Virus record (IMG/VR): IMGVR_UViG_3300032286_000710
Span: 102,605-166,604 of that record
Length of the DNA: 64,000 bases
Direction: 5' to 3' (one strand)
DNA from: a virus
Positions within the stretch are counted from its first letter, which is position 1; each line of letters begins with the position of its first letter. A program made the translations under genes and the position numbers. Shown here one piece after another: positions 39,493-56,670 of the stretch. Under the pieces are notes generated by a model. The model made no database searches, was not told the origin of the DNA, and saw only the letters and a program-made list of their open reading frames with translations.

Positions 39493-39536
39493 GGTGGGCC
39501 GCGTTCGCCGTAAACCCTTATGGGGTATGGACTTAC
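39493..39536. repeat. Paired-palindrome element E1 (half copy)
   Basis: GC core followed by TAAACCCTT-N7-ATGGACTTA. Confidence 0.7.
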
Positions 39537-39585
39537 GACTAATCATATGAATGATACGATCAGCTCATTAAGGGAATAATATATT

Positions 39586-39601
39586 TGGCACAGCATTTGC
39601 T
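39586..39601 (+). promoter_or_regulatory. Sigma54-type -24/-12 site
   Basis: TGGCAC-AGCAT-TTGCT. Confidence 0.6.
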
Positions 39602-39660
39602 CTAGAGAATATTTATTGCTTTGGCACAAGATTATATTCAAAAATATTTTAGATTGCCAC

Positions 39661-39688
39661 TTGACATGGCCGATAAGTATGGTATAAT
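39661..39688 (+). promoter_or_regulatory. Early sigma70-type promoter
   Basis: TTGACA-16 bp-TATAAT with CGATA in the spacer. Confidence 0.8.
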
Positions 39689-39719
39689 AAGAGCATAAGA
39701 AAGAAAGAGAGAAAGAAAA

Positions 39720-39914
39720 ATGACAATCAACACTGAAATCAAGACAACCTACAATGGCAAGACTTATACGGGCTTCGTTGTAGAAAGCAAACTGGTCAAG
39801 GGTCGTGAGATGATCACGATCATGATTGAAGATAGTTCGCGGAATGAAGGTATTGGATACCGTAGCATGTATGTCGATATGATGTCTCAAACGTCAGAAA
39901 ATCTTTTTGCTTGA
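39720..39914 (+). CDS. Early hypothetical protein
   Basis: 64 aa after a promoter and a purine-only leader. Confidence 0.65.
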   Translation: MTINTEIKTTYNGKTYTGFVVESKLVKGREMITIMIEDSSRNEGIGYRSMYVDMMSQTSENLFA

Positions 39915-39917
39915 GGC

Positions 39918-39946
39918 TTGACACGGGAAAAGACGATAGATATAAT
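39918..39946 (+). promoter_or_regulatory. Early sigma70-type promoter
   Basis: TTGACA-17 bp-TATAAT. Confidence 0.8.
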
Positions 39947-39974
39947 AGAGAGAAAGAAAGAGAGAGAAAAGAAA

Positions 39975-40142
39975 ATGACATACTTCATTCAAATCTTAGA
40001 CGCTTGGGATTGTGAGATAGACTTTATCGGCCCCTTCAATACTGAAAACGAAGCCTATGAGGCTGGTTGGAGTAAGTGGGAAGGCGATGAAAATGCCTAT
40101 AGCAGTCATATCGTCAAGAGGCTCCCCGCTTCTACTCACTGA
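39975..40142 (+). CDS. Early small acidic protein
   Basis: MTYFIQILDAW...; start placed after the purine leader. Confidence 0.6.
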   Translation: MTYFIQILDAWDCEIDFIGPFNTENEAYEAGWSKWEGDENAYSSHIVKRLPASTH

Positions 40143-40218
40143 AAAAATATTTCCTAGGGGCTTGACACGGCGAAAGCCGATGTATATAATAGAGCGAAAG
40201 AAAGAAAAGGGAAAGAAA

Positions 40219-40347
40219 ATGACAACGCTGATTCTAATCGTGGTAGGAAAGAAGTATAAGGTATACAAGGATATGGGCAATGGTAAGCGTAGGCTTCTCG
40301 GCTCTTTCAATAGTTCGACTGAGGCCGAACGATTCATGAACGCTTGA
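40219..40347 (+). CDS. Early small basic protein (paralog of 42737..42886)
   Basis: GKKYKVYK...RRLL..F....EAERFMN; has its own promoter at 40162. Confidence 0.65.
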   Translation: MTTLILIVVGKKYKVYKDMGNGKRRLLGSFNSSTEAERFMNA

Positions 40348-40408
40348 CAAATAGATAGACGATAGATATAATATCCACAGTTATCTAACCCTAAGAAAGA
40401 AAAAGAAA

Positions 40409-40624
40409 ATGTTTGGCACTGCATACGCTGTCCGTAAGAATAACCTCAACACTATCTTCGCATCTATGATCGCTGGTAAGTATACCAGTGTGATCGACCC
40501 GAAGGGTAGGGTATATGCTGGCCTTATCAATGCTATCATGCGTGAGGATGGTAGTGGTCGCAACTGGATCGTAACCATCACGAATCAGACCAAGAGTGAA
40601 CAAGTGTTCATTCATGCAGTCTAG
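40409..40624 (+). CDS. Early hypothetical protein
   Basis: 71 aa behind a TTGACA/TATAAT promoter at 40344. Confidence 0.65.
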   Translation: MFGTAYAVRKNNLNTIFASMIAGKYTSVIDPKGRVYAGLINAIMREDGSGRNWIVTITNQTKSEQVFIHAV

Positions 40625-40678
40625 AGCGTACTATCTAATCCGCAGGGGTAAGCAGCACCCCCAACAGGGGGGAGCAAC

Positions 40679-40718
40679 AGCAAATCCTGTGCCAAAAAAT
40701 CTTGGCATACCATTTGCG
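40679..40718. promoter_or_regulatory. Back-to-back pair of sigma54-type sites
   Basis: Minus TGGCACAGGATTTGCT (40679-40694) and plus TGGCATACCATTTGCG (40703-40718), 8 bp apart. Confidence 0.6.
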
Positions 40719-40731
40719 TATAGATTTGTTC

Positions 40732-40809
40732 TAAACCCTTACCCTATAAGGACTTAGGGCGAGGGCGGCGGGCCGGATTTGACGTAAACCCTTACTGTAT
40801 ATAGACTTA
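40732..40809. repeat. Paired-palindrome element E2
   Basis: 25-bp palindrome, 28-bp GC core, 25-bp palindrome. Confidence 0.85.
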
Positions 40810-40896
40810 CGACTAGTAAGGACATCGCATCGAAGAGGTGTTTAAGGGAATAAAATATGCCATGCTCAAAAAATGGGCGTGGTAAGATAGGGGGAC

Positions 40897-41064
40897 TGTT
40901 GCAAAATCATACAGTGATGCAGTTTCTCGGCCAAAAGTGCTATAGCAAAATGCAACACACTGTAGCAAAATGCTACGCTTAATCTCTAGGCACAGAAAAT
41001 AGCATAGCGTTTTTCCCGCGAAATACGCACAAAAAAATAATCTATGATTGGCACGGGGTTTGCT
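40897..41064 (+). promoter_or_regulatory. Putative enhancer-dependent sigma54 promoter, copy 1
   Basis: Three TGTWGCAAAATGCWACA-like boxes (40897, 40941, 40961) and TGGCACGGGGTTTGCT at 41049-41064. Confidence 0.6.
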
Positions 41065-41100
41065 CTATATATAGATAGAGAAAGAAAGAGAGAGTTTAAG

Positions 41101-41532
41101 ATGATCGGTTTTTTTGATTTTGACATGACTACAGCGATTACAAAAGGTAAGGAAACTCCAAGTTTTAGCCAGTTTAAGAATCCTGAGTTTGCTGTAGAAG
41201 ATATTCTGAATGCAAAGCCTACAAAGATTACGAAAAACGTAATGAATAGGTATAAGAAAGTTTTTATTCTAACCGCTAGAAATGATGGAAAGAATAATGA
41301 AATGAGTAATGCAATGCAAAAGTATTTTATGCAAAATGGGATATATATTCCGAATAATCAGATTTTGATGCTTGGGGATTATATGAAAGATAGAAAGACT
41401 GCTGAAAAGAAATCAGTTGTGCTAAATAGGTTAAGTAAGCATTTTAAGCAAACTATTCATTTTTGGGATGATGATAACGATAACGTAAGATACGCAAGAT
41501 GCTTAGATAGGGTAAAGACATTCCAAGTCTGA
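41101..41532 (+). CDS. HAD-superfamily phosphatase-like protein
   Basis: FFDFDMT (motif I), ILTAR (II), K (III) and FWDD (IV). Confidence 0.7.
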   Translation: MIGFFDFDMTTAITKGKETPSFSQFKNPEFAVEDILNAKPTKITKNVMNRYKKVFILTARNDGKNNEMSNAMQKYFMQNGIYIPNNQILMLGDYMKDRKTAEKKSVVLNRLSKHFKQTIHFWDDDNDNVRYARCLDRVKTFQV

Positions 41533-41613
41533 AAAATATTTTCTGGGGCTTGACAAGCAAAAAGCCGATATATATAATAGGGAAAGAAGAAAGAAAGAGA
41601 AAAGGAAAAGAAA

Positions 41614-41826
41614 ATGAAGAATCTTAAGGTTTTCAATACGCTGAACGAGTTGATCGACTATCTTGACGAAAACGAAGTTGATACGCTTGTGGGTTATGCT
41701 GCTTTCGGGCTTGATCTTCTGGATCATGCTAGAAACAATGACAACGAAATCGAAATCGGTTGGGATGGTGGATTCATCCAGATTGACGATATGGGATACG
41801 TTGTTGCAGACTTTGCAATCTGCTAA
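41614..41826 (+). CDS. Early acidic hypothetical protein
   Basis: 70 aa; promoter at 41549. Confidence 0.65.
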   Translation: MKNLKVFNTLNELIDYLDENEVDTLVGYAAFGLDLLDHARNNDNEIEIGWDGGFIQIDDMGYVVADFAIC

Positions 41827-41900
41827 TCCCCCATAGGTGGGGTTGACACGTTAGAAAATCTTTATAGAATATATTTCATCACTTCAAAAGGAAAAAGAAA

Positions 41901-42086
41901 ATGACCAACGACTTTGTATACAATATGAGCGAAATCAACGAAGAGGATATCTACAGGGGCTGGGAAGAAATGGCAAACGAAGATAGCGAGTTATTTTTGG
42001 TAGTCTACGGTGTTCCCGGTGAAGATGAAGAAGATGAGGAAGATGGGTATGATGAGGACTTTTGGGGAGAGCAGTATTTCGCGTGA
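41901..42086 (+). CDS. Early highly acidic protein
   Basis: 61 aa, D/E-rich. Confidence 0.6.
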   Translation: MTNDFVYNMSEINEEDIYRGWEEMANEDSELFLVVYGVPGEDEEDEEDGYDEDFWGEQYFA

Positions 42087-42245
42087 GCAAATCCCGTGCC
42101 AAACGCGAATGGCACACGGTTTGCCCTAGGATTTGACCTAAACCCTTACTACCAAAGGACTTAGGGCGAATCCGGCGGGCCGGGTTTGCCGTAAACCCTT
42201 GATACATAAGGACTTAGGGCGAGTATCGACGCAAAGGCTGTGCCA
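42086..42245. repeat. Paired-palindrome element E3 (42139-42216) flanked by sigma54-type sites
   Basis: Sites at 42086-42101 (-), 42110-42125 (+) and 42230-42245 (-). The two inward-facing sites each lie 13 bp from the element. Confidence 0.85.
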
Positions 42246-42296
42246 AAAAATAATATATTCCAAGCCTAAAAAAGAGGCATGTTAAGATGGGCAATC

Positions 42297-42463
42297 CGTT
42301 GCAAAATGCTACACTACCTCAGTTTCACGGCGGAAATCACTAACGCAAAATGCTACAGGGTGTTGCAAAATGCTACGCTCAAAAACTAGGCACAAAAAAT
42401 GTCATAGCGTTTTTCCCGAGCGAAACGCAAAAAAAATAATCTATGTTTGGCACGGTAGTTGCT
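42297..42463 (+). promoter_or_regulatory. Putative enhancer-dependent sigma54 promoter, copy 2
   Basis: Three boxes (42297, 42341, 42361) with the same spacing as copy 1, then TGGCACGGTAGTTGCT at 42448-42463. Confidence 0.6.
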
Positions 42464-42497
42464 CTATATATAGGTATAAGAAAGAGAGTTTGAAAGA

Positions 42498-42664
42498 TGA
42501 GAAAGTCAAGTTATTACCGTGGTTCTGATGATGGATACGATTATTCCCGAGACAATCGGGATGGATATGTTGACGTTGAACTCCGTTTGTTGGAGATAGA
42601 TCGTCAGAATCGTGAGAATCAAAAGCGGTTCGAAGAATCGAAAAACAAAAACGAAAAATCGTAA
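42498..42664 (+). CDS. Small hypothetical protein (about 55 aa)
   Basis: MRKSSYYRGSDDGYDYSRD... Occupies the same position behind the duplicated promoter as the HAD gene; the 3' end is approximate. Confidence 0.5.
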
Positions 42665-42736
42665 GTTTTTCCGCTTGCGTCTTCAAGATTAGACGCTAGA
42701 ATGTCGATAGATAAGAAAGAGAAAAAGGAAAAGAAA

Positions 42737-42886
42737 ATGGAAACCACAGTTCTGATTTTTGATCGTAAGGGTAAAAAGTATAAGGTTTATAAGCAGACTA
42801 ACCATACAAACGGTTGGTATCGTCGTTTGCTTGCTACGTTCAAAACTTCTCAGGAAGCCGAAAGATTTATGAACTCCCGCCCATAA
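42737..42886 (+). CDS. Early small basic protein (paralog of 40219..40347)
   Basis: Shares GKKYKVYK and EAERFMN with the paralog. Confidence 0.65.
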   Translation: METTVLIFDRKGKKYKVYKQTNHTNGWYRRLLATFKTSQEAERFMNSRP

Positions 42887-42952
42887 GGGGGGTATGCAAG
42901 GCTGAAAAAGTTTCTTAGAATCATACCAGTATCACCAACCAAGAGAGAAAAA

Positions 42953-43282
42953 ATGGCTACAAAGTTTAAAATCATCGAAGATGCCAAGCGTCAAATCCGC
43001 TCATGCTTTTTGGGAATCGCCGTTCCCCACCAACCTAGCCTAGCCGATGGCGAATATGGGCCAATCAAGAGCGAAAAGGTAATCAAGTTTAATAAAACGG
43101 CTTTGCGAAATATGGGCAAGATGAAGAAAGAGAAAGTCGATCCCCGTCTTTTGGGGGGTAGTGATCTTATGGTTGATAAGGTAGGCAAACCGGGAAGCAA
43201 AGATAGAGTAGAGGCTTTACGGGCTTTCTATGAACTACAGAATATGGCAGGACAGGAAACCTCCGTGTTTTACGAAGAATAG
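42953..43282 (+). CDS. Early hypothetical protein
   Basis: 109 aa; GKPGSKDRVEALRAFY motif. Confidence 0.65.
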   Translation: MATKFKIIEDAKRQIRSCFLGIAVPHQPSLADGEYGPIKSEKVIKFNKTALRNMGKMKKEKVDPRLLGGSDLMVDKVGKPGSKDRVEALRAFYELQNMAGQETSVFYEE

Positions 43283-43290
43283 GGGTTTTT

Positions 43291-43402
43291 GGTAAGATAG
43301 GTAATCTGGGTAATCTTGGTAAGATAGGCAAGGGGGGTAATCTAGGCAAAATGGGGGGTTTGGGCGATCTGGGAAAACTGGGTAGTCTCGGCCAAAGTGG
43401 CC
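43291..43402. repeat. 9-bp-periodic G-rich tandem repeat
   Basis: GGTAAGATA, GGTAATCTG, GGTAATCTT, GGCAAAATG and similar; about 12 units. Confidence 0.6.
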
Positions 43403-43494
43403 GGATCATGTGGTAGTCAGCGTTGTCAGCGAGAAATCCCCTTGACAACTAAAGTCTAGAGTGTAGAATGTCGATATAAAGGAAAGAGGAAACA

Positions 43495-43716
43495 ATGAAC
43501 GAGTACCAAAAAGTATATAAGTTTGATAATGGGTACGGTGCTAGTGTGGTGTGTAACTCACTACTAGGAACCTATGGGTCTAAGGATGGATTGTTCGAAG
43601 TTGCCATTCTGAAAGGCGACGATATTTGCTACGATACCCCTATCTCCCCAGATGTTGTGGGGTGGCTTGACTTTGCCGGTGTGGCCGATATACTTAATCA
43701 AATCAAGGCTCTCTAA
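43495..43716 (+). CDS. Conserved phage hypothetical protein
   Basis: FDNGYGASVV...GLFEVAIL...DVVGWL motif. Confidence 0.75.
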   Translation: MNEYQKVYKFDNGYGASVVCNSLLGTYGSKDGLFEVAILKGDDICYDTPISPDVVGWLDFAGVADILNQIKAL

Positions 43717-43729
43717 CTAAGGAAAAAAG

Positions 43730-44032
43730 ATGAATCACACTGAAGCAACAAAGATGGTTCTTGGTAAGACTAATCGTGGTCAACGTAAGGTGGGAAATAA
43801 TACCTACGCTTACATTGAACATGACGGAAGTGTGGCGATTGAGTTGCACGGTACTAAGGTGGTGGTTTTTTATCCTAACGGGCTGGTAAAGTTGAACAGT
43901 GGTGGATATCGAACCAGCACTACTAAAAAGCGTATTAACCAGTATAGCCCCGTGAGTGTGTACCAGAAAAACTTTGAATGGTTTTTGCGTGATGGTACTC
44001 AGTTTGAAGATAATGTTTTGGTTACTAACTAA
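43730..44032 (+). CDS. Conserved phage hypothetical protein
   Basis: LHGTKV...LNSGGYRTSTTKKRINQY...VYQKNFEWF. Confidence 0.75.
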   Translation: MNHTEATKMVLGKTNRGQRKVGNNTYAYIEHDGSVAIELHGTKVVVFYPNGLVKLNSGGYRTSTTKKRINQYSPVSVYQKNFEWFLRDGTQFEDNVLVTN

Positions 44033-44047
44033 AGAAAGGGATCACGG

Positions 44048-44146
44048 ATGGTCGATATTAACTGGGTACAAATAGGTGTGGGATTTGTTATTGGCATTGG
44101 TTGCTCTTGGATTGTTTCTGATCTTGTTTTTCCAATAAGGAAGTGA
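44048..44146 (+). CDS. Small membrane peptide (32 aa)
   Basis: MVDINWVQIGVGFVIGIGCSWIVSDLVFPIRK. Confidence 0.5.
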   Translation: MVDINWVQIGVGFVIGIGCSWIVSDLVFPIRK

Positions 44147-44148
44147 AA

Positions 44149-44226
44149 ATGCGTACAGGTGATGCGATTGTTCTTTCTATTTCATTCGTGATCGGATGTA
44201 TAGCGGCTTGGATTGTGAATAGTTGA
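44149..44226 (+). CDS. Small membrane peptide (25 aa)
   Basis: MRTGDAIVLSISFVIGCIAAWIVNS; AAGGA RBS. Confidence 0.5.
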   Translation: MRTGDAIVLSISFVIGCIAAWIVNS

Positions 44227-44228
44227 CG

Positions 44229-44286
44229 TAACTCTATATCTGATAAGGGTTTAGGGCGAATGGGGCGGGCCGCGATTTTCGTGCCA
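44229..44286. repeat. Element E4 (half copy ending in a sigma54-like site)
   Basis: One palindrome, the GC core, then minus-strand TGGCACGAAAATCGCG. Confidence 0.75.
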
Positions 44287-44385
44287 AATCACCTTTCATC
44301 TTTTTAAGGAAAAAATATTGTTGGAGGGGGCTTGACGTTGCCGATAATCCCTGTATAATCGAAGTATCACCAAGGGAGAAAAGCG

Positions 44386-44556
44386 ATGTACGAGTTTGAT
44401 GATGTAGAGCGTGTTCTGGCTGAAGCAGCGGCTATTCAAGCAGAGCAGCATATGGTAGAGCCGATTGACGATCCGGCTGTGCTGTGCGATTTCTACGATT
44501 ATGCCGCGATTGTTGGTATTGACGTTGACGATTACCTTCCCGTAGAGTATACTTGA
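44386..44556 (+). CDS. Early acidic protein (56 aa)
   Basis: MYEFDDVERVLAE...; GGGAG RBS; promoter at 44332. Confidence 0.6.
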   Translation: MYEFDDVERVLAEAAAIQAEQHMVEPIDDPAVLCDFYDYAAIVGIDVDDYLPVEYT

Positions 44557-44566
44557 GGAGAGAAAG

Positions 44567-44767
44567 ATGAGTTGCCCCGATCCTACCCACGATTACGAGG
44601 ACTATGATATGGATCACCATGATGATACTGCCGACCCGAACGATTATCGTGACGATTACTATGATGATAGTATGGATGGCGACCACGATAGTGCTATGAA
44701 CTCTATCGGTTGGGACGTTGATGAAGGTTATGGATGTTTTGGTGACACTTACGGAGATGATTTCTGA
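44567..44767 (+). CDS. Extremely Asp-rich protein
   Basis: 66 aa; DDSMDGDHDSAMNSIGW motif; GAGGAG RBS. Confidence 0.7.
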   Translation: MSCPDPTHDYEDYDMDHHDDTADPNDYRDDYYDDSMDGDHDSAMNSIGWDVDEGYGCFGDTYGDDF

Positions 44768-45171
44768 TGAATGATGCGTTTACTTTGGGCATTTGTTTTG
44801 CTTGTGCCGTTGCGGTTATTGGTGTTTTTCTTCTATATAACATTTATAGGGGTGTAAATGATAGTCTTACTAATGCTGTTATTGGTACTGTATATAACTT
44901 TCGATACTTCCAGCCAGTAACGGGAGACTATGAAAGGTATCTCGCCAAGGTTGTTGGTGTTCGTAAGTTGAGTCAGGCTGAAATCTCACGTTTGAACTGG
45001 ACGAGCGATTACCGCCAATATGATAGTGAGTTTAAGCGTAGTCCTACGCTTGTTACATGCGAAATGGGTAACGGTGACTTTCGACAGTTCTATGCTGAAC
45101 GTAGTGACATGTGCAGACGTTCAGCTGTAGGTGAACTTTTGTTCAAGGCGGGTGTGGCACACCTGTTTTAA
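44767..45171 (+). CDS. Membrane-anchored hypothetical protein
   Basis: N-terminal transmembrane helix; 134 aa. Confidence 0.7.
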   Translation: MNDAFTLGICFACAVAVIGVFLLYNIYRGVNDSLTNAVIGTVYNFRYFQPVTGDYERYLAKVVGVRKLSQAEISRLNWTSDYRQYDSEFKRSPTLVTCEMGNGDFRQFYAERSDMCRRSAVGELLFKAGVAHLF

Positions 45172-45195
45172 TGTACACTACCTAGACCCTTCTCC

Positions 45196-45273
45196 TAAGT
45201 CCTTACGGGCAAAGGAGTTAGGGCTAGGCGGGCGGGCCGGATTTGATGTAAAGTGTTGTCAGATATAGACTTA
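45196..45273. repeat. Paired-palindrome element E5
   Basis: 25+28+25 geometry. Confidence 0.85.
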
Positions 45274-45353
45274 GAACAAGTTAAAGATTGGGCTTGACAA
45301 AAGCCGATAATATGCTAGGATACCTAAGTCGTTACAGTACAAGGAGTTATACC

Positions 45354-45530
45354 ATGTCAAAATGGGATGATTGGGTACATTGTGAGGAAACGGCAGATTT
45401 GGTAGTTTGGGAGGAATGGGAGGCTTGGGTAAGGGAGGAAAACTGCGGGGGAGTGTCTCTCCCTAAGAATGAAGATCGATGCTGTGGGGATAGTCAGCGA
45501 GAGTATGACTTGACAGACCTTCCATTTTAG
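45354..45530 (+). CDS. Trp-rich acidic small protein
   Basis: MSKWDDWVHC...; AAGGAG RBS. Confidence 0.55.
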   Translation: MSKWDDWVHCEETADLVVWEEWEAWVREENCGGVSLPKNEDRCCGDSQREYDLTDLPF

Positions 45531-45576
45531 AGTAAACTGTTAAGAGTCAATAGCCGATAACATTATAAGGGAAAAC

Positions 45577-45855
45577 ATGGGAATATTAGACACATATAGT
45601 GCGTATGAAGTGCGTGATATTTGGCGTGACGATACCAATGGTTGGCCCGAAGACTTTATTCTATGCGTGAATGATCTACTGGCTAATGATCTTCTGGATT
45701 CATGGCTTGACAACCACAGCGATGAGGAGTATCGTGAGCGTATTCGTGAAATCATTGAAGATGAAACATATGGATATGAGGATGAGGATGGCAATGAAAT
45801 GCTTGACTTTAATCCTAGTAAAGATAATGATGGACAGTTCAGATTATTTGAATAG
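45577..45855 (+). CDS. Acidic hypothetical protein
   Basis: 92 aa, D/E-rich. Confidence 0.6.
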   Translation: MGILDTYSAYEVRDIWRDDTNGWPEDFILCVNDLLANDLLDSWLDNHSDEEYRERIREIIEDETYGYEDEDGNEMLDFNPSKDNDGQFRLFE

Positions 45856-46013: not shown

Positions 46014-46074
46014 TTGACTTTTTGGTGTGTATACAGTATAATAGATAAAACCATTCCTTTAACCCCTAAATACT

Positions 46075-50708: not shown

Positions 50709-50895
50709 CAAGCCGATAACATAGTGTATAATGAGAGAGTAAGACATGGAGAATGTAGCGTAATGGTAGCGTGTGGGAAGTTCCGAACTGCGACAATAGT
50801 GCAGAGTAGGCAAACAAATGCCCATGAAGTGGTTCGATTCCACTCTTCTCCCCTTGACAAGTCGATAACATAGTGTAGAATGATGGAGTAAGACA
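50701..50895 (+). promoter_or_regulatory. Tandem duplicated sigma70 promoters (about 46-bp direct repeat)
   Basis: TTGACA-agccgataacatagtg-TATAAT (50705) and TTGACA-agtcgataacatagtg-TAGAAT (50854). Confidence 0.8.
50748..50852 (+). ncRNA. tRNA-like RNA with an expanded anticodon loop of about 43 nt
   Basis: Acceptor GGAGAA(T)G/CTTCTCC, D-arm GCGT-AATGGTA-GCGT, T-arm AGTGG-TTCGATT-CCACT. Confidence 0.65.
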
Positions 50896-50905
50896 AAACA
50901 AATAT

Positions 50906-51039
50906 GCGTGCGTCTAGCGACTAGATTGGGATAACCTATACGATAAACCTACGGCTGTTATGCAGCGTGGGGTTGCCTAACGGGGTTATACGTTAGGATA
51001 GTATACCAATCTACGGGGGTGCGATTCCTCTGCCACGCT
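50906..51039 (+). ncRNA. tRNA/tmRNA-like structured RNA with a pseudoknot
   Basis: GCGTG/CACGC closing stem, T-like arm GGGGG-TGCGATT-CCTCT, helix TAGATTGG/CCAATCTA and two inner hairpins. Confidence 0.6.
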
Positions 51040-51046
51040 CTAATAC

Positions 51047-51267
51047 AACCAGTAACCGTTACTAAGAGCCAGACCAGAGCGGCAATGCCCGCTTTGCAGG
51101 GAGGATTTCCGTGGGCGGTTTACAACAGTTCCGTAATAGGGTAGACTGTTGAGTAAGGATTTGGGCGTAAATGATCCGCTGGTTATAACTCTGCTGGTAG
51201 TTTCCTTACAAAAGGTTGAACGGATTAGTACCGAGAGGCTGTTCGTAAAACTACCAGTGGTCGGTAC
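51047..51267 (+). ncRNA. Candidate structured RNA(s): a multibranch domain and a pseudoknotted three-way junction
   Basis: AACCAG/CTGGTT, CAACAG/CTGTTG, CTGGTAGTTT/AAACTACCAG, and loop GTACCGA pairing with TCGGTAC. Confidence 0.5.
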
Positions 51268-51303
51268 ACTTGACTTGACGATAACTAATGGTATAATAAT
51301 AGT

Positions 51304-51519
51304 ATGAAAGTTACCGCTAAACAAAATGGTCGTAAGTGGACTAAGGAACGTTTGAAACGTCATCCCGGCGAATGGGAAGTTGAGCAGGAAACGAAGTTCG
51401 TACCATGTTGGCCGGGAGAAGCGGCTATTCTGATTAAGAATACAACTGATGGGTGGAGTGGCTGGTTTCCTGTTAAAGATATTGACATTGTACTAGGGGA
51501 AAATAATGGAATGGATTAG
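51304..51519 (+). CDS. Hypothetical protein
   Basis: 71 aa, probably leaderless behind a promoter ending at about 51297. Confidence 0.6.
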   Translation: MKVTAKQNGRKWTKERLKRHPGEWEVEQETKFVPCWPGEAAILIKNTTDGWSGWFPVKDIDIVLGENNGMD

Positions 51520-51781
51520 TTTTCATGGCCCTCGTCGCCCTGTTAATGGTCAAAAGATCATCTATTATGGTGAGGCTATTGGTGTGTGGCGTGGTACATA
51601 CAAGATAAACTATGATGATAAGTTTTGTATTCATAATATCTATTGTGGTGAAACTTGGGGAAATGTAGACTATATGGATGCCCCGTGGTGGATGCCAGAT
51701 TTAGGACAAGAGAAACCACAACCACCTAGCGAAGATTACCCCTCCGATTACCCTTGGATTAATAATAAGGAAAACAAATGA
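51506..51781 (+). CDS. DUF551-like hypothetical protein
   Basis: MEWIS...P...WMP motif. Confidence 0.55.
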   Translation: MEWISFHGPRRPVNGQKIIYYGEAIGVWRGTYKINYDDKFCIHNIYCGETWGNVDYMDAPWWMPDLGQEKPQPPSEDYPSDYPWINNKENK

Positions 51782-52137
51782 TTAACGTTGGAATGACGAT
51801 TCGTGAGATGGTGAGCATTGCTTCTAATGGTAGTTGCAATGGTGATCTGTATGAGCGGATTATCAAGGCTCTGGAACTGGCTACTGGCAATGAGAAGTTG
51901 CTGGTTGGCTGTAACGGTGTCAAGTATGATACTCAGTATTGGGATGGCAAGATTCCTGCTATCAAGAGCCTGCGTCTGGCTACTGGTATGGGATTGAAGG
52001 ATGCCAAGGATTGGGTTGAGGATGCCCAATACCACAGTGGAACTAAGTACACTGGCCCTCTTGATCCCGAAGTTGCACAAAAACTGTGCGACGAACTCAA
52101 GAAGTGTGGTATGGATTGCTGGACCACTAACTCTTGA
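51778..52137 (+). CDS. Ribosomal protein bL12 (L7/L12) C-terminal-domain protein
   Basis: KIPAIKSLRLATGMGLKDAKDWVE...EVAQKLCDELKKCG matches the bL12 CTD signature. Confidence 0.7.
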   Translation: MINVGMTIREMVSIASNGSCNGDLYERIIKALELATGNEKLLVGCNGVKYDTQYWDGKIPAIKSLRLATGMGLKDAKDWVEDAQYHSGTKYTGPLDPEVAQKLCDELKKCGMDCWTTNS

Positions 52138-52146
52138 AGCTCGCCT

Positions 52147-52224
52147 TAAGTCCTTATCCCACAAGGATTTAGGACCAAGGGGGCGGGCCGCGTTCGTCGT
52201 AAGTCCTTACCCCACAACGACTTA
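52147..52224. repeat. Paired-palindrome element E8
   Basis: 25+28+25 geometry. Confidence 0.85.
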
Positions 52225-52329
52225 TGACAAAAAAATATTTTTTCAAGGAACCCGCTTGACAAGGCCGATAGTAGATGTATAATCAGTAGAGTAATGGTTG
52301 ATAACACTAACTTGAAAATGGAGATTATT

Positions 52330-52599
52330 ATGCAGAAGTTTACGTTTGTTGTTGATATTGTGACCGATTCGCCGGTTGGTATTGAGCCGCAGGCTGTTCG
52401 TGATACGCTTCTGGCGTCTGTCGATGGCATTGGCAATATCGCCGCTGTTCATCCTGTCAAGACCGAGACTCTCAAAGAGCAGGGTTTCAAGGTTTGGCGG
52501 GCAAGGGTTGCTGGTATCAAGGAACCGGCCAAGGTCAAGGTTCCCAAGGCTCCCAAGGCCAAGAAGGTCGAGGCCGAAGTCGCAACGGCGACGGCTTGA
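52330..52599 (+). CDS. Protein with a Lys/Ala/Pro-rich tail
   Basis: GGAG RBS; C-terminal KVKVPKAPKAKK. Confidence 0.65.
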   Translation: MQKFTFVVDIVTDSPVGIEPQAVRDTLLASVDGIGNIAAVHPVKTETLKEQGFKVWRARVAGIKEPAKVKVPKAPKAKKVEAEVATATA

Positions 52600-52716
52600 T
52601 TTTCTAAAGAACGTCGTGTAGAATACCGATATACCTTATAGGCGGTGGAAGTCAAAAACGCAACTGGACGTTAGACCAGTATAGGTATATCATTTTCCAC
52701 TAACTAGGAGTTTACA

Positions 52717-53076
52717 ATGGGTTTGGATCAGTTCGCATTTGCTATCGACAACAATGGAGAGAAGGAAGAACTTGCTTACTGGCGTAAGCATCCTAATCTT
52801 CAAGGTTGGATGGAGAATCTGTGGGAAAGTAAGGGTCGCCCTAACGCCAACGAAGATCATCCGCATGAGTTCAACTGTATTCAACTTGAACTTACTAAGG
52901 AAGATCTGGATAGTCTAGAGCAGGATGTTACTAATGCTAATCTGCCAGACACCGTAGGATTTTTCTTTGGTAGTAACAGCGATGGAGAGTACGGGCAGCA
53001 GGATTTGGAGTTTGTTCAGAAAGCCCGAGAAGCACTTGACAGCGGACTAACGGTAGTGTATGATAGTTGGTGGTGA
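52717..53076 (+). CDS. Conserved phage hypothetical protein
   Basis: MGLDQ...YWRKHPNLQGWM...FNC...GFFFG...YDSWW family. Confidence 0.8.
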   Translation: MGLDQFAFAIDNNGEKEELAYWRKHPNLQGWMENLWESKGRPNANEDHPHEFNCIQLELTKEDLDSLEQDVTNANLPDTVGFFFGSNSDGEYGQQDLEFVQKAREALDSGLTVVYDSWW

Positions 53077-53242
53077 CATTACGATAACAATGAGGAACGA
53101 CATGAAGATTCTTGGATTGGGCGATGAGACTGATGCTGGCAAGGTGCTTAGTATTAGTCGTGATGGTGTGACGTTTGAGAAGAACGGTGCAAGGGTTGTG
53201 TTGACCCTCACTGAAGTTGAGTCGATGGTTTTTTCTAACTAA
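53060..53242 (+). CDS. Hypothetical protein
   Basis: ORF of up to 60 aa; start uncertain (possibly MKILG). Confidence 0.5.
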   Translation: MIVGGDITITMRNDMKILGLGDETDAGKVLSISRDGVTFEKNGARVVLTLTEVESMVFSN

Positions 53243-53249
53243 GGGAGAT

Positions 53250-53465
53250 ATGATGTCTAATAACTTTGCTAGTCTGCGTAAGAACCGCCATATCAAGTGT
53301 AAGTATCCCCTGCATGGTACTAAGAACGTGCTGAAGTATCATGTTGGTCGTATTGAGCGTGTTGGTACTGGCCCTAATGGCCGATATGCCGTGGTTCGTG
53401 CTATGAATCAGACCGTTCGCACTCTGCTGTGCGATAAGATGATCGAAACGCAGTGCTATCGTTGA
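53250..53465 (+). CDS. Hypothetical protein
   Basis: MMSNNF... after a GGGAG RBS. Confidence 0.55.
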   Translation: MMSNNFASLRKNRHIKCKYPLHGTKNVLKYHVGRIERVGTGPNGRYAVVRAMNQTVRTLLCDKMIETQCYR

Positions 53466-53523
53466 TTCTCCCTTGAGTGTATGGGTGGCGTATGGTACAA
53501 TACTATGCGTCACCCGTATCTAT

Positions 53524-53599
53524 GGGGCGTAAGGTAAGCCGGTTGCATCCGCCAATCTTATAAGTTGGTCATAGGTCTGTTCGACTCAGACACGCCCTA
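53524..53599 (+). tRNA. trnI: tRNA-Ile(TAT)
   Basis: GGGGCGT/ACGCCCT acceptor, CCAAT-CT-TAT-AA-GTTGG anticodon arm, GTCTG-TTCGACT-CAGAC T-arm; atypical D-arm. Confidence 0.75.
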
Positions 53600-53662
53600 T
53601 TTTAGTAGTCTTATAATGCTTTTCGTGTATAGTATAATATCAACTACTATACAGGAGCATAT

Positions 53663-54097
53663 ATGAATACTAAAACTTGTACGGATTGTAAACAAGAACT
53701 AACAGTAGACCAGTTCTCAAAAAATGACCAGAAAAAGGATGGACTAAACTATAGATGCAAGGCGTGTCAAAAGATTTATTTCAAGCAGCATTATCAAAAT
53801 AATAAACAATACTATGTAGATAAAGCCGCTGAACAAACTCAAAAGTTTTTAGCAATAATAGAAGAAGCAAAGCAGGATAAACTTAAAAAAGGATGTTCTA
53901 TATGCGGCATGTATCATCCCGGCGTATTAGACTTCCATCATGTAGATCCTTCTAAGAAAGATTTCACTATTGCTAAATCTAGGACTAAAAGCAAAGAAAA
54001 GTTTCTACGGGAACTTGACAAGTGCATCGTCTTGTGTTCTAACTGTCATCGTATCCTTCATTGGAGAGAACGCAACTTAGATGCGGAGACTTCTTGA
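53663..54097 (+). CDS. HNH endonuclease
   Basis: CxxC motifs and LDFHHVDP...ELDKCIVLCSNCHR; GTGTATA at 53625-53631. Confidence 0.85.
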   Translation: MNTKTCTDCKQELTVDQFSKNDQKKDGLNYRCKACQKIYFKQHYQNNKQYYVDKAAEQTQKFLAIIEEAKQDKLKKGCSICGMYHPGVLDFHHVDPSKKDFTIAKSRTKSKEKFLRELDKCIVLCSNCHRILHWRERNLDAETS

Positions 54098-54212
54098 TAG
54101 AACTAATGATTATGATTTTCGTTTGGAGTATGCTGTTTACAGAAGAATAAATAGGACGTTGTTTGAATACTAAAAGTCAACACGCCCCCAACCATTTAGG
54201 AGATAGTATATT

Positions 54213-54422
54213 ATGAACGAGAAAGTAGCCACCTATGTTATGGATGATGTACAGTATGATATTTATGCGTGTTATGATTCTTGGCATGATATGGATATTC
54301 GTAATGTATCTTTCTATGACGTTTACAACCAGAAAACGGGAGCGTGTGTAAACGAGGGAGATCCTTTCTACGAGTTTCCAACGTGGGATGATATTTTCAG
54401 CAACTACTACTCAAAGGTCTAA
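54213..54422 (+). CDS. Hypothetical protein
   Basis: 69 aa; AGGAG RBS. Confidence 0.65.
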   Translation: MNEKVATYVMDDVQYDIYACYDSWHDMDIRNVSFYDVYNQKTGACVNEGDPFYEFPTWDDIFSNYYSKV

Positions 54423-54423
54423 T

Positions 54424-54612
54424 ATGTACCATTACGTTACTATCAATGCTGTTATGCGAGACTGTAACTCTATTGAGGATGCTATTAAAAAGTGTGGCAT
54501 TTTACTCCCACAGTATCCAGATGAAAATACTGTACATATGGAATCGTGGGCGATTTCTGAAGTGTACGAAACTGCTACTGGTAAAACATATGTAGAAACT
54601 CAGGAGTGCTAA
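54424..54612 (+). CDS. Hypothetical protein
   Basis: MYHYVTINAV... Confidence 0.55.
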   Translation: MYHYVTINAVMRDCNSIEDAIKKCGILLPQYPDENTVHMESWAISEVYETATGKTYVETQEC

Positions 54613-55076
54613 TCATGGGTATGGGTAGTTATGCGGTAAGTAGTTATGTTATTCCATACGATGAACTGAAAAAGATTTGTCCAGATGAAATAGCGGCTAT
54701 TGAAAAGGAAAAGTATTTTGATTCTATTGGTTGGAATAGTATTGGATGTTGGATGTCGTGGAGCGATCCCGATCAGTTCAAAGAGAATATCTTAGAATCT
54801 TTTGATAATCCAGAAAGCGAAGATAGCGAAAAGATTGCAGAGGAAATGGTTAAGGTGTATGACAATCGTATTATCAATCTTACAAAGGCTTTCAACGAAA
54901 AAACTGGATTGGCTTTATACTTTGATATTTACGATGAAGATCAAGGCGATAGATACGATGAGCCGGGAGATGAAGATGGTTGTATATTCTGCGTGAATGG
55001 TATGGTACAACTTACTCCTGCGGGCGAGAAATATAAAGATATTATTACTGAGCGTAGATGGACTCAGTATGGATAA
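54606..55076 (+). CDS. Acidic hypothetical protein
   Basis: About 153 aa; likely start MGMG. Confidence 0.65.
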   Translation: MLIMGMGSYAVSSYVIPYDELKKICPDEIAAIEKEKYFDSIGWNSIGCWMSWSDPDQFKENILESFDNPESEDSEKIAEEMVKVYDNRIINLTKAFNEKTGLALYFDIYDEDQGDRYDEPGDEDGCIFCVNGMVQLTPAGEKYKDIITERRWTQYG

Positions 55077-55107
55077 TGCTTGGGAAGAATAGCACCGTGA
55101 TTCGTTC

Positions 55108-55185
55108 TAAGTCCTTTAGCCACAAGGATTTAGGGCGAACGCGGCCCGCCCCGCTGATCGTAAGTCCTTATCTACCAACAACTTA
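55108..55185. repeat. Paired-palindrome element E9 (inverted core)
   Basis: 25+28+25 geometry; the core reads CGGCCCGCCCC. Confidence 0.85.
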
Positions 55186-55280
55186 CGTCAAAAAGAAAAA
55201 ACTAATGCTGACCCCTTGACATGCCCGATATATAGGGTATGATGGTTGAAGTTGATAACCCACTACTAGGAGATTTGATA

Positions 55281-56477
55281 ATGAGTTACGATAAGTTGAC
55301 GATTCAGAGCAAGCCGAGCGAAGGCGATTTTGTTCGTACCCTCCAAGGTGCTACTGGCACTGGTTTTGAGAAGGGTACGCATGTTCACAAGGATTGGTGG
55401 GCAAAGACCAAGACCTACGAGCAGGTCATGCAGGATGCCAACGTCGCTGTAGAGAACCGCGAAGATATTCTGACTGAGCGTAAGAACATTACCTGTGTTG
55501 GTAATGATAAGGGATTCTTTTTGAAGTTGAACGATGGACGAGAGTTTCGCCCTACGGATCACGCCATTGAACAGTTTAGTGTCCGCGTGGGTGTTACCTC
55601 GTCCTCGTTCCTTCGTGAGATGCGTAACATCGAAAACTTCGATCTTGCGGATGCTGATACCATGGCATATGTTGGCAACAATGCTTTGCGTCGAATCGAC
55701 GCCGATAAGACTTTCCGACTCCGTACATATACGGATGGAACGTGTCGTGCGTTCGTGACTGAGCAATATGCTCCTGTGGATAATCGCTGGTATCTGGAAA
55801 CCCTGTCGGAGTTTGTTCCCGGCGGTCGTTTCAGTCACTGGCGTGGCGATGAGGATACTATCTATGGTAATATCCTTATCCCCGATACTATCATGGACTA
55901 CGGTGCTGACGATAGTGATTATGGTGGAATGATTAGCGTGGGCAACTGCGAAATCGGCACTCGCCGCATTAGCCAGACGCCTAGCCTTTTTCGTGCCATC
56001 TGTATGAACGGTTGCATCTGGGGTCAGACTAAGGGTGAGAAGATTCGCCGCGTTCATCGTGGCAATATCGACCTCGCTGTGCTGAAACTGGAAATCGCCC
56101 GTAATATTCAAGATCAGATTCCGCTTCTTGCTCCCGGCATCAAGCAGTTTCTGGCTACCCGTGCCTTGGAAACTGGCAAGGCTAGCGTGAAGGGTGTTGT
56201 GGCTACGGTATCGTCGGATTACAAACTGAGCAAGCGTGAGGCTACGGAGTTTCTTGAGCAGTATGTTACTATGGAATCTGGAGAGCGTAACCTGTTTGGT
56301 ATTATCAACGGTCTGACCCGTGCTGGTCAGGTTTTCGATAATAAGACTTGGGTGAAGTTCGATGAAATCGCTGGCAGTCTGCTTGATACTAATGCAGACC
56401 GCTGGGCTACGATTCTGCGTCGTGCTGATACTTTCACCGACAAGGATTACGAAAAGGTTTTCGCTCTTACCGCTTAG
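55281..56477 (+). CDS. DUF932-family protein
   Basis: RAFVTEQYAPVDN...GMISVGNCEIG...FRAICMNG...RRVHRG; AGGAG RBS. Confidence 0.75.
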   Translation: MSYDKLTIQSKPSEGDFVRTLQGATGTGFEKGTHVHKDWWAKTKTYEQVMQDANVAVENREDILTERKNITCVGNDKGFFLKLNDGREFRPTDHAIEQFSVRVGVTSSSFLREMRNIENFDLADADTMAYVGNNALRRIDADKTFRLRTYTDGTCRAFVTEQYAPVDNRWYLETLSEFVPGGRFSHWRGDEDTIYGNILIPDTIMDYGADDSDYGGMISVGNCEIGTRRISQTPSLFRAICMNGCIWGQTKGEKIRRVHRGNIDLAVLKLEIARNIQDQIPLLAPGIKQFLATRALETGKASVKGVVATVSSDYKLSKREATEFLEQYVTMESGERNLFGIINGLTRAGQVFDNKTWVKFDEIAGSLLDTNADRWATILRRADTFTDKDYEKVFALTA

Positions 56478-56479
56478 TT

Positions 56480-56526
56480 AGTGGGAGGGTTGGGGTTGGG
56501 GGGAAACCCCCTTCCCCACTCTCACT
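56480..56526 (+). terminator. Hairpin/terminator after the DUF932 gene
   Basis: AGTGGGAG...GGGG-GAAA-CCCC...CTCTCACT inverted repeat. Confidence 0.55.
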
Positions 56527-56542
56527 GACTTCTGGCTTGTCG

Positions 56543-56670
56543 TAAGCCCTTTAGCAGTAAGGGTTTAGGGCAACCGGGGCCGGGGCGATCATTCATAAGT
56601 CTTTTATTTTCAAGTACTTACGTCAAGTCTAATGGTGAATGAACGTAAGTCGTTTGTTCTCAAGTACTTG
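56543..56670. repeat. Paired-palindrome element E10 with a third palindrome
   Basis: Palindromes start at 56543, 56596 and 56646. Confidence 0.8.

What the first reader, a model, noticed from the sequence alone, without database searches (positions are those of the whole stretch)
39493..56670. Dispersed paired-palindrome element with invariant 25+28+25 bp geometry punctuating the early region
Seen in the sequence: seven full copies (palindromes starting at 40732/40785, 42139/42192, 45196/45249, 49385/49438, 52147/52200, 55108/55161, 56543/56596) and three half copies (39511, 44229, 47545). Each palindrome is TAARYCCTT-N7-AAGGACTTA-like, with 9-bp arms and a freely varying 7-bp centre. The two palindromes always start exactly 53 bp apart (about 5 helical turns) around a GC core (GGGCGGGCCG), which is inverted in one copy. 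All copies are intergenic, between the end of one transcription unit and the promoter of the next; I saw none in the late arm. Conserved spacing with drifting sequence points to a phased two-dimer nucleoprotein complex. Established: the half-sites resemble the IHF consensus WATCAANNNNTTR (exact match TATCAAGGATTTA at 47557), and a 9-7-9 layout is typical of tyrosine-recombinase core sites. Inference: cassette-shuffling sites, an insulator or architectural scaffold on first-injected DNA, or decoys titrating a host nucleoid protein.
Basis: partly seen in the sequence, partly recalled or inferred. Interest (0 to 1): 0.9.

Follow-up and report, generated by a model that had tools for sequence, protein, structure and literature searches.

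The report
Phased palindrome pairs before early promoters
The early-gene region of this uncultured 167-kb phage is punctuated by ten copies of a rigid pair of DNA palindromes that sit a whole number of helix turns upstream of strong host-type promoters; they are most likely landing pads for a still unknown DNA-binding protein that controls early transcription, and the same apparently undescribed element is common in related uncultured phages.

Summary
Seven full and three half copies of a ~95-bp unit (palindrome, GC core, palindrome; starts 53 bp apart) lie only in window 39.5-56.7 kb; none elsewhere in the 166.6-kb genome and none in a reversed-sequence control. The same element occurs in more than 100 uncultured viral contigs, with 112 distinct pairs at 53 bp and 24 at 52 bp.

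It reads as double-stranded DNA, not as an RNA hairpin:
- The arms show no compensatory change.
- The GC core is a third dyad, centred on the pair's axis. It covaries even where a hairpin loop would be only 2 nt.
- The distance from the promoter-side palindrome to the -35 box of the next sigma-70 promoter falls at 33, 43-44, 54-55, 63-66 and 74-78 bp. The period is 10.7 bp, and the linkers are unrelated.

The IHF, tyrosine-recombinase and cassette-shuffling readings are not supported. Best reading: docking sites for an unidentified dyad-symmetric protein acting on RNA polymerase at the adjacent promoter. Whether it activates or represses is unknown.

New here: a sigma-54-type motif often sits at a fixed 27-28 bp from the outer palindrome.

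This scan found the same element on two other genomes (e1-5739595, e1-5785856). I found no published description.

The parts
39493..39541 (+). Half copy 1: GC core remnant plus right palindrome (39511-39535). It lies in the divergent region between the leftward and rightward gene blocks.
   Evidence: (D4). The orthologous site in relative L069 is a full pair.
40726..40817 (+). Full copy 2: palindromes 40732-40756 and 40785-40809 with the core between. It is preceded at 27 bp by a sigma-54-type motif (40703-40717, +).
   Evidence: (D3)
42133..42224 (+). Full copy 3: palindromes 42139-42163 and 42192-42216. It is part of a 1.4-kb duplicated block and is bracketed by convergent sigma-54-type motifs (42110-42124 + and 42231-42245 -), each 27 bp from the nearer palindrome centre.
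   Evidence: (D3, D6, D9)
44223..44290 (+). Half copy 4: left palindrome 44229-44253 plus core. A degenerate antisense sigma-54-type motif stands where the right palindrome should be. The next promoter is at 44332-44359.
   Evidence: (D11)
45190..45281 (+). Full copy 5: palindrome 45196-45220, core, and degenerate right palindrome 45249-45273. The -35 box at 45294 lies 33 bp from the right palindrome centre.
45325..45349 (+). Solitary palindrome between the -10 box (45316-45321) and the start codon at 45354. It lies 129 and 76 bp from the two palindromes of copy 5, and its right arm carries the ribosome-binding site.
47539..47610 (+). Half copy 6: left palindrome 47545-47569 plus core, 11 bp after tRNA-Asp. 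The next promoter is at 47658-47685. It is a full pair in relatives L038 and L123.
   Evidence: (D11)
49379..49470 (+). Full copy 7: palindromes 49385-49409 and 49438-49462, with a variant core kept in the orthologues. It starts 3 bp after the stop at 49382. The -35 box at 49483 is 33 bp from the right centre.
52141..52232 (+). Full copy 8: palindromes 52147-52171 and 52200-52224. The upstream stop is at 52137. The -35 box at 52256 is 44 bp from the right centre.
55102..55193 (+). Full copy 9: palindromes 55108-55132 and 55161-55185. The core is in the opposite sense, as in the orthologues of L044 and L123. The -35 box at 55216 is 43 bp from the right centre.
56537..56670 (+). Full copy 10 with a third palindrome: 56543-56567, 56596-56620 and 56646-56670. 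The third overlaps the weak -35 box of an extended -10 promoter (56668-56696).
39661..55243 (+). Array of near-consensus sigma-70 promoters on the gene strand, many sharing a conserved spacer motif. Those at 45294, 49483, 52256 and 55216 follow an element in helical register.
   Evidence: (D5, D13, D17)

Best explanation
The element is a protein-docking site on double-stranded DNA. It consists of two 25-bp dyad-symmetric operators, each with half-sites made of two conserved blocks 5.5 bp apart. Their centres are 53 bp (five helix turns) apart, and a GC-rich dyad lies exactly on the axis between them.

The platform stands at the boundary between early transcription units, on one face of the helix relative to the next sigma-70 promoter, three to seven turns upstream of the -35 box. 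I infer that dimers of an unidentified sequence-specific protein (phage early protein or host factor) bind the two palindromes and touch RNA polymerase at the adjacent promoter from upstream. This is the geometry of phase-dependent upstream regulators.

Because the promoters are already near consensus, I lean towards a timed switch that holds or shuts off these early promoters, as phi29 p4 does. Activation or insulation from upstream read-through remain possible.

Shown: the anatomy, family-wide conservation, lack of pairing selection, symmetry and phasing. Inferred: that a protein binds, which protein, and the direction of the effect.
For: 1. Restricted and non-random. There are 17 sites at up to 3 mismatches, all in the 17.4-kb early segment, with 0 elsewhere and 0 in the control.

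2. Family-wide rigidity. 112 distinct pairs are spaced 53 bp and 24 are spaced 52 bp. The rare variants at 40-41 and 62-64 bp differ by about one turn.

3. No selection for pairing. 69.6% of cells are paired against 68.0% in shuffles, and 22 pairs have double changes against 25.6 expected. The inner arms have 0-2 double changes but many fixed mismatches: 42 of 69 unpaired at one position and 50 of 69 at another. The same holds in an anchor-based sample free of pattern bias. At one position A never meets T (0 of 65) while A opposite C occurs 32 times.

4. The conserved blocks lie 5.5, 11 and 22 bp apart, on one helical face.

5. The core's self-complementarity peaks at the pair's axis. It covaries at the innermost pair (CG 40, GC 14), which would enclose a sterically impossible 2-nt loop.

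6. Phasing with the promoter. 66 distinct cases cluster at 33-34, 43-44, 54-55, 63-66 and 74-78 bp. Rayleigh R is 0.56 at 10.7 bp. After collapsing related linkers to 18 groups, R is 0.81 and the best period is 10.7 bp. 0 of 10,000 random sets reach this. The linkers of different classes are unrelated in sequence. Solitary palindromes in relatives follow the same series. The window values are 33, 33, 44 and 43.

7. Orthologous copies keep their position and their peculiarities at about 70% flanking identity, and are better conserved than the genes around them.

8. No Rfam family matches, and the region holds no excess of intrinsic terminators.
Against: - No binder was found. 187 small ORFs of the phage gave no recognisable DNA-binding domain in Pfam, and 53 early ORFs gave none in PHROGs. 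For one set only 25 of 40 families were listed.
- The most widespread early protein near the elements (109 aa) is missing from a 95%-complete relative that has many pairs, and its model is of low confidence.
- The host is unknown.
- Many consensus early promoters in the same region have no element, and the promoters look strong without help.
- Copies 2 and 3 have no sigma-70 promoter within 160 bp.
- The half copies are about half a turn out of the series (91 and 101 bp from their palindrome).
- Fixed orientation relative to the genes, and a start a few bases after stop codons, would also suit an RNA element.
- G opposite T outnumbers A opposite C in the outer arm of the left palindrome on the sense strand.
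- Orthologous sites are not independent, which inflates the raw p-values.
Confidence: 0.6

Rival explanations
1. RNA-level punctuation. The two hairpins and the GC stem, read as part of the early transcripts, terminate, process (RNase III or RNase E type) or stabilise the upstream message and protect the downstream one.
For: - Each copy starts 3-100 bp after a stop codon or tRNA and lies before the next promoter.
- Orientation relative to the genes is fixed.
- All copies fold.
- The region lacks canonical terminators.
- G-U-type pairs outnumber A-C in the left outer arm.
- T4-type PeSL stem-loops in the same position terminate transcription (PMC2839356).
Against: - There is no compensatory change in the inner arms, and there are fixed mismatches in both hairpins.
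- About half of the left palindromes have a tandem A-C/C-A mismatch on the sense strand.
- The core covaries at a pair that cannot form in a hairpin.
- No U-tract follows any stem.
- RNA function does not predict a 10.7-bp register with the -35 box.
- Neither strand folds clearly better.
- The phage has no RNase III gene.
Confidence: 0.12
2. Part of a sigma-54 system. The palindromes and the core are the binding platform (enhancer or operator) for a host enhancer-binding protein, or for a regulator of the sigma-54-type sites that flank the element.
For: - The motif TGGCAY-N5-TTGC occurs 83 times in 374 kb of relatives, where about 1.4 are expected.
- 55 of the 83 lie within 120 bp of a pair.
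- In 19 of 65 oriented elements the motif lies antisense just after the right palindrome, mostly at 27-28 bp from its centre.
- In the window, copy 3 is bracketed by two such motifs at 27 bp.
- Tandem dyads on one helical face are the usual form of sigma-54 enhancers (established knowledge).
Against: - Only about 30% of elements have the motif.
- The palindromes lie on the transcribed side of it, 27 bp away, not 80-150 bp upstream.
- The phage has no AAA+ activator.
- The phasing with sigma-70 promoters holds where no sigma-54 motif is present.
Confidence: 0.1
3. Recombination substrates. The repeated elements exist mainly to shuffle early-gene cassettes, either by homologous exchange as with PeSLs or by a site-specific enzyme.
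For: - Homology blocks with more distant relatives often begin at an element, for example at 47543, 52147 and 56533.
- The early genes between elements are highly variable: most window ORFs are found in fewer than 8 of about 60 related loci.
- PeSLs offer a precedent.
Against: - None of 5 indels against a ~90% identical relative ends in a palindrome, and one ends in promoter repeats.
- The elements are orthologous and stable in place.
- There is no integrase and no Y1 transposase.
- The centres differ between all copies.
- Breakpoints at gene boundaries are expected anyway.
- Recombination does not explain the dyad symmetry, the 53-bp rigidity or the promoter register.
Confidence: 0.08
4. Selfish or host-derived repeat: a REP/BIME/REPIN-like or MITE-like element, or a decoy for IHF or another host nucleoid protein.
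For: Paired imperfect palindromes with a fixed linker at the 3' ends of transcription units resemble BIMEs and REPINs (established knowledge).
Against:
- There is no RAYT-type transposase.
- The long-hairpin fold is not supported, because the centres and outer flanks of the two palindromes are not complementary.
- The IHF consensus fits 2 of 17.
- Copies are orthologous between relatives, not recently spread.
Confidence: 0.04

Closest known systems
PeSLs (promoter-early stem-loops) of T4-type phages (Arbiol et al. 2010, PMC2839356; Comeau et al. 2014, PMC4122927)
   Same: Both are repeated composite intergenic motifs in the variable early region. Each has a self-complementary GC-rich segment, then an AT-rich stretch, then a consensus sigma-70 promoter and the next small gene. 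Both sit between the stop codon and the next promoter.
   Different: - PeSLs have one G-run/C-run stem-loop shown to terminate transcription. Here two sequence-conserved AT-rich palindromes flank the GC segment at a rigid 53 bp, show no pairing selection and are in helical register with the promoter.
- PeSL indels between close relatives have crossovers inside the motif. Here none of 5 indels did.
- The phage is not T4-like: its large terminase is at most 27% identical to any cultured phage's.
phi29 p4 binding sites 1-4 between promoters A2c, A2b and A3 (Camacho and Salas 2010, PMC3100819)
   Same: Both consist of imperfect inverted repeats with a long non-specific centre, arranged in pairs next to early promoters. 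In phi29 each is bound by a dimer of a small early phage protein that switches early promoters. The half-sites are pseudo-symmetric, differing systematically between the two sides.
   Different: - The sequences are unrelated.
- phi29 sites 1 and 3 overlap the -35 boxes, whereas these palindromes lie 33-78 bp upstream.
- phi29 has one such control region; this phage has ten.
- No p4- or p6-like protein was recognised.
Phase-dependent upstream regulators of sigma-70 promoters (class I CRP sites near -61.5, -71.5, -82.5 and -92.5; Fis sites at rrnB P1). From established knowledge, not re-read here.
   Same: In both, a dyad site works from variable distances that differ by whole helix turns, which implies contact with RNA polymerase from one face. 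The palindrome centres here fall near -68, -79, -90, -100 and -111.
   Different: The sequence is different, the series is offset by about 4 bp from CRP's, the sites come as rigid pairs with a third central dyad, and the protein is unknown.
Stoperators of cluster A mycobacteriophages (L5 gp71). From established knowledge.
   Same: Both are many copies of one protein-binding site spread through short intergenic gaps, with a fixed orientation relative to transcription.
   Different: Stoperators are single asymmetric 13-14-bp sites spread over the whole genome of a temperate phage. These are paired 25-bp dyads confined to 17 kb of a phage without an integrase.
BIME/REP and REPIN elements of bacterial chromosomes. 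From established knowledge.
   Same: Both are doublets of imperfect palindromes with a set linker at the ends of transcription units.
   Different: Those are chromosomal, number in the hundreds, are linked to RAYT transposases and fold as one long hairpin. Here none of these features was found.

Membership tests
PeSL (T4-type promoter-early stem-loop) | Composite of a stem-loop sequence followed by an AT-rich stretch and a consensus sigma-70 early promoter, located between small early genes | tested here: met
   Seven of ten copies are followed within 110 bp by a sigma-70 promoter. The family-wide layout is shown.
PeSL (T4-type promoter-early stem-loop) | Insertions, deletions and replacements between close relatives have their crossover points inside the motif | tested here: not met
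   Between the window and L044 (~90% identity, 8.5 kb) there are 5 indels. None is at a palindrome, and one lies between promoter copies.
PeSL (T4-type promoter-early stem-loop) | The stem-loop acts as a transcription terminator or attenuator | not testable with these tools
   This needs a reporter or a transcript map. By sequence there is no U-tract and no pairing selection.
Structured RNA element (terminator, RNase III site, stabiliser hairpin) | Base pairing maintained by compensatory substitutions | tested here: not met
   69.6% of cells are paired against 68.0% in shuffles. Double changes number 22 against 25.6. The inner arms have 0-2 double changes and fixed mismatches.
Intrinsic terminator | GC-rich stem followed directly by a U-tract | tested here: not met
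   No copy is called by the terminator scan, which finds 14 sites against 12.7 expected in the region, none of them at an element. One search agrees.
Tyrosine-recombinase core site or integron attC | A cognate tyrosine recombinase gene | tested here: not met
   PF00589 is absent from the complete 166.6-kb record, while all 14 control genomes score positive.
Tyrosine-recombinase core site or integron attC | Identical overlap (central) sequence between partner sites, or for attC a long hairpin pairing the two ends | tested here: not met
   The central 7 bp differ in all copies. The centres and outer flanks of the two palindromes are not complementary.
IHF binding site | Match to WATCAANNNNTTR as a property of the element | tested here: not met
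   2 of 17 window palindromes and 3 of 65 family elements match, through the variable centre only.
REP/BIME/REPIN or MITE | Many copies in a cellular genome together with a RAYT/Y1 transposase | tested here: not met
   No PF01797 was found.
Operator array of a phage transcription regulator (phi29 p4 type) | Dyad-symmetric sites with conserved half-sites, no pairing selection, and a fixed geometric relation to promoters | tested here: met
Operator array of a phage transcription regulator (phi29 p4 type) | A protein that binds the sites and changes promoter activity | not testable with these tools
   No candidate was recognised among 187 small ORFs. The 109-aa family is not universal.
Sigma-54 enhancer (upstream activator sequence) | Tandem dyad sites 80-150 bp upstream of a -24/-12 promoter, with an AAA+ activator | tested here: inconclusive
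   -24/-12-type motifs are strongly associated with the element but lie 27-28 bp away and point into it. The phage has no PF00158. A host activator cannot be tested.

The most novel reading that the evidence does not exclude
The element may be the core of an undescribed boundary switch. In this reading three evenly spaced dyads (palindrome, GC core, palindrome; 26.5 bp apart) assemble a multimeric protein. That protein couples a rightward sigma-70 early promoter to a back-to-back, leftward sigma-54-type site, both held at fixed helical distances. Holoenzyme parked or activated on the antisense site, together with the bound platform, would then decide whether each early unit is read, silenced by antisense transcription, or insulated. 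This would be a phage-wide timing device built from two host polymerase forms.
Probability: 0.12. Interest if true: 0.85.

Novelty: new variant of a known kind. Interest (0 to 1): 0.6.

Why it matters
Early-gene control in large uncultured phages is almost unknown. Here a single, easily recognised DNA element marks the early region of a whole clade, found in more than 100 contigs. Its geometry is precise enough to design experiments directly: 5-bp versus 10-11-bp spacer changes, pull-downs, and binding screens with an expressed ORF set.

Finding the binder would give a new DNA-binding family and a handle on how these phages time or insulate host-takeover genes. The element is also a practical marker for locating early regions and orienting fragments in metagenomes. 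The fixed link to sigma-54-type motifs, if real, would be an unusual use of that polymerase form by a phage.

Tried and rejected
- **Known RNA families.** An Rfam scan of 38-60 kb at E up to 1 found only tRNAs and an intron-like hit.
- **Folding both strands of every copy.** The energies are similar, so no strand can be chosen.
- **Terminators.** They occur at chance level in the region, and only 2 perfect ones exist in the genome.
- **Gene searches in the phage.** Searches for a recombinase, Y1 transposase, HU/IHF, a sigma-54 activator and RNase III were all negative, with working controls.
- **IHF consensus.** The match is incidental.
- **Host repeat family.** The genome-collection scan gave single chance hits. 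It is capped at 120 rows, so this negative is weak.
- **Close cultured relatives.** None exists: DNA similarity is limited to tRNA and HNH pieces, and the large terminase is at most 27% identical.
- **Hunt for the binder.**
  - Pfam on 187 small ORFs and PHROGs on 53 early ORFs found no regulator-type domain.
  - The Xre_MbcA_ParS_C hit is a 65-aa protein without an HTH domain.
  - The 259-aa protein beside the phage sigma factor is clade-specific but looks structural, judged by its C-terminal repeat-like motif.
  - The 109-aa early protein found in 18 nearby loci is absent from a 95%-complete relative with many pairs. Its AlphaFold model is poor (pLDDT 68, pTM 0.35), so no fold search was run. 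The ESM Atlas gave nothing.
- **First gene-strand call by longest ORFs alone.** It was unreliable, so I oriented elements only where ORF content and GC skew agreed: 66 of 118.
- **Literature.** Searches for the motif words and for conserved early-region palindromes found no description.

Full report
**What the window is.** The window is the last 64 kb of a 166,604-bp viral record with short terminal repeats. Earlier notes of this scan describe it as an uncultured freshwater phage. It has no close cultured relative. DNA similarity to known phages is limited to tRNA and HNH pieces, and its large terminase is at most 27% identical to any in the phage collection. Genes run leftward up to about 39.3 kb of the window. 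From about 39.6 kb they run rightward and continue over the record's start. The finding lies at the start of this rightward block. That block is dense in near-consensus sigma-70 promoters and very small genes.

- The repeat finder returns a 7-copy family of 92 nt and two families that tie in the half copies.
- In register, every copy shows a 25-bp palindrome, a 28-bp GC-rich linker and a second palindrome, with starts 53 bp apart.
- All matches in the whole genome fall in window 39511-56620, with none for the reversed pattern.
- At up to 3 mismatches the count is 17 inside, 0 outside and 0 in the reversed genome.
The symmetry extends into the flanks, to about 15-16 bp per arm, and the flanks differ between the left and right palindrome. 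The palindrome at 45249 is degenerate. Palindromes at 45325 and 56646 were missed.
- Each copy begins 3-100 bp after a stop codon or a tRNA. Seven are followed within 110 bp by a sigma-70 promoter.

**It is a clade-wide element.** Dozens of these carry many pairs, one every 1-1.5 kb. Among distinct close pairs, 112 are spaced 53 bp and 24 are spaced 52 bp. Small lineages show 40-41, 50 or 62-64 bp, and their linkers differ but stay GC-rich. Copies are orthologous between relatives whose flanking DNA is about 70% identical. Positions are kept, as are oddities such as the opposite-sense core at 55108 and the variant core at 49385. The window's half copies at 39511 and 47545 are full pairs in relatives. 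So the copies are old and under selection, not recently spread.

**RNA or DNA?** I oriented 65 distinct elements by the gene strand, keeping only those where ORF content and GC skew agreed.
- The element is asymmetric and its orientation is fixed. The first half-site alternates between two forms, and the last half-site carries a different fixed base.
- The arms do not behave as stems. Pairing is explained by column composition: 69.6% of cells are paired against 68.0% in shuffles. Double changes are fewer than expected, and the inner arms have 0-2 of them. Two positions are unpaired in 42 and 50 of 69 sequences.
- An anchor-based sample that takes the partner palindrome by position, whatever its sequence, shows the same. 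Departures are mismatches, not compensated pairs.
- At one position A never faces T but faces C 32 times.
- The conserved blocks lie 5.5, 11 and 22 bp apart, as expected for a dimer reading one face of B-DNA.
- The linker's self-complementarity peaks exactly on the axis of the pair. It covaries even at the innermost pair (CG 40, GC 14), which would leave a 2-nt loop. That is possible for a duplex dyad and not for a hairpin.
- The centres and outer flanks of the two palindromes are not complementary, so a single long hairpin is not supported.

**Register with promoters.** Two earlier reports on other genomes claimed helical register, so I tested it on my own data.
- The distance from the promoter-side palindrome centre to the first base of the next -35 box clusters at 33-34, 43-44, 54-55, 63-66 and 74-78 bp in 66 distinct cases. 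Rayleigh R is 0.56 at 10.7 bp.
- After collapsing related linkers to 18 groups, R is 0.81, the best period is 10.7 bp, and 0 of 10,000 random sets reach this.
- Linkers of different classes are unrelated in sequence.
- Solitary palindromes in relatives follow the same series.
- In the window the values are 33, 33, 44 and 43.
- 53 bp is five such turns, so both palindromes and the promoter share a face. An RNA or recombination role does not predict this.

- The IHF consensus fits 2 of 17 palindromes, through the variable centre. The phage has no HU/IHF gene.
- There is no integrase or Y1 transposase, and the centres differ between all copies.
- Against a ~90% identical relative, five indels in 8.5 kb all miss the palindromes. 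One is a 72-codon gene with its own promoter, inserted between promoter copies. Cassette gain therefore seems to use the promoter repeats.
- The 120 hits listed from the scan of 185,579 species genomes were single, chance-level matches. The exception is one 141-kb contig that looks like a relative of the phage.

**A new link.** A sigma-54-type motif is about 60-fold over-represented in the relatives, and two thirds of its copies lie within 120 bp of a pair. In 19 of 65 oriented elements it lies just after the promoter-side palindrome and antisense to the genes. It is mostly 27-28 bp from the palindrome centre and back to back with the sigma-70 promoter. In the window, copy 3 is bracketed by two such motifs at 27 bp, and the half copies carry a degenerate one in place of the second palindrome. 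The phage has no sigma-54 activator gene. I cannot explain this link.

**Who binds?** This is unknown.
- No regulator-type domain was found among 187 small ORFs.
- The commonest early protein near the elements is missing from a near-complete relative rich in pairs, and it models poorly.
- A clade-specific 259-aa protein beside the phage's sigma-factor gene looks structural.

**Comparison with known systems.** The layout most resembles PeSLs of T4-type phages, which combine a stem-loop with an early promoter between variable genes. It fails their defining recombination test, however, and adds two phased, sequence-conserved dyads. In mechanism it most resembles the paired pseudo-symmetric sites of phi29 p4 beside early promoters and phase-dependent upstream regulators such as CRP or Fis (established knowledge). 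Searches of the paper library for the motif and for such elements found no description.

**Verdict.** The 'phased nucleoprotein complex' reading is supported. The IHF, recombinase and shuffling readings are not. This is a new variant of a known kind, a phage operator array, with an unidentified protein and an unexplained tie to sigma-54-type motifs.

Noticed in passing
window 39586-42462; relatives L007-L125: Perfect sigma-54-type motifs cluster here on both strands, 8 in 3 kb. In relatives they sit at a fixed 27-28 bp from the outer palindrome, pointing into the element. Two pairs form divergent inverted repeats (40680-40717 and 42087-42124).
   Followed up: partly
window 46228-47320: A group I intron-like hit at 46327-46508 scores 47.4 bits, just under the Rfam cut-off of 50. 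It lies directly after tRNA-Thr and before an HNH endonuclease ORF on the other strand (46559-47320).
   Followed up: no
window 50701-50895: Two 91%-identical copies of one promoter flank a weak tRNA-like hit (50749-50851, 29.9 bits). The close relative L044 has a single promoter copy and lacks the insert.
   Followed up: partly
window 37866-39278 (- strand): The leftward block opens with an early-type promoter, a 56-aa ORF, a clade-specific 259-aa protein (30 homologue clusters, no Pfam domain) and a sigma-70-family protein (174 aa, region 2 only).
   Followed up: partly
window 39661-55243, and relatives: The early sigma-70 promoters share a conserved motif (GCCGATA) inside the spacer between the -35 and -10 boxes. 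This suggests an extra recognition element.
   Followed up: no
window 39720-63105 (+ strand ORFs): One small early ORF matches the C-terminal domain of ribosomal protein L7/L12 (E 6.4e-7), another matches a Lar-like restriction-alleviation family, and two match HNH/endonuclease VII families. I did not resolve which ORFs these are.
   Followed up: no
window 45325-45349: A solitary palindrome lies between the -10 box and the start codon of the gene at 45354, and its right arm doubles as the ribosome-binding site. This downstream position is rare in relatives (2 of 59 solitary sites).
   Followed up: partly
L044 (reverse strand) 5022-5281 versus window 55250: The relative carries a 72-codon gene plus a second promoter inserted right after the promoter homologous to 55216-55243. 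This is cassette gain at promoter repeats.
   Followed up: yes
window 43289-43352 and 56711-56747: A short repeated motif (GGTAAGAT-like units) forms a small tandem cluster after the 109-aa gene and recurs near the last element. Its meaning is unknown.
   Followed up: no
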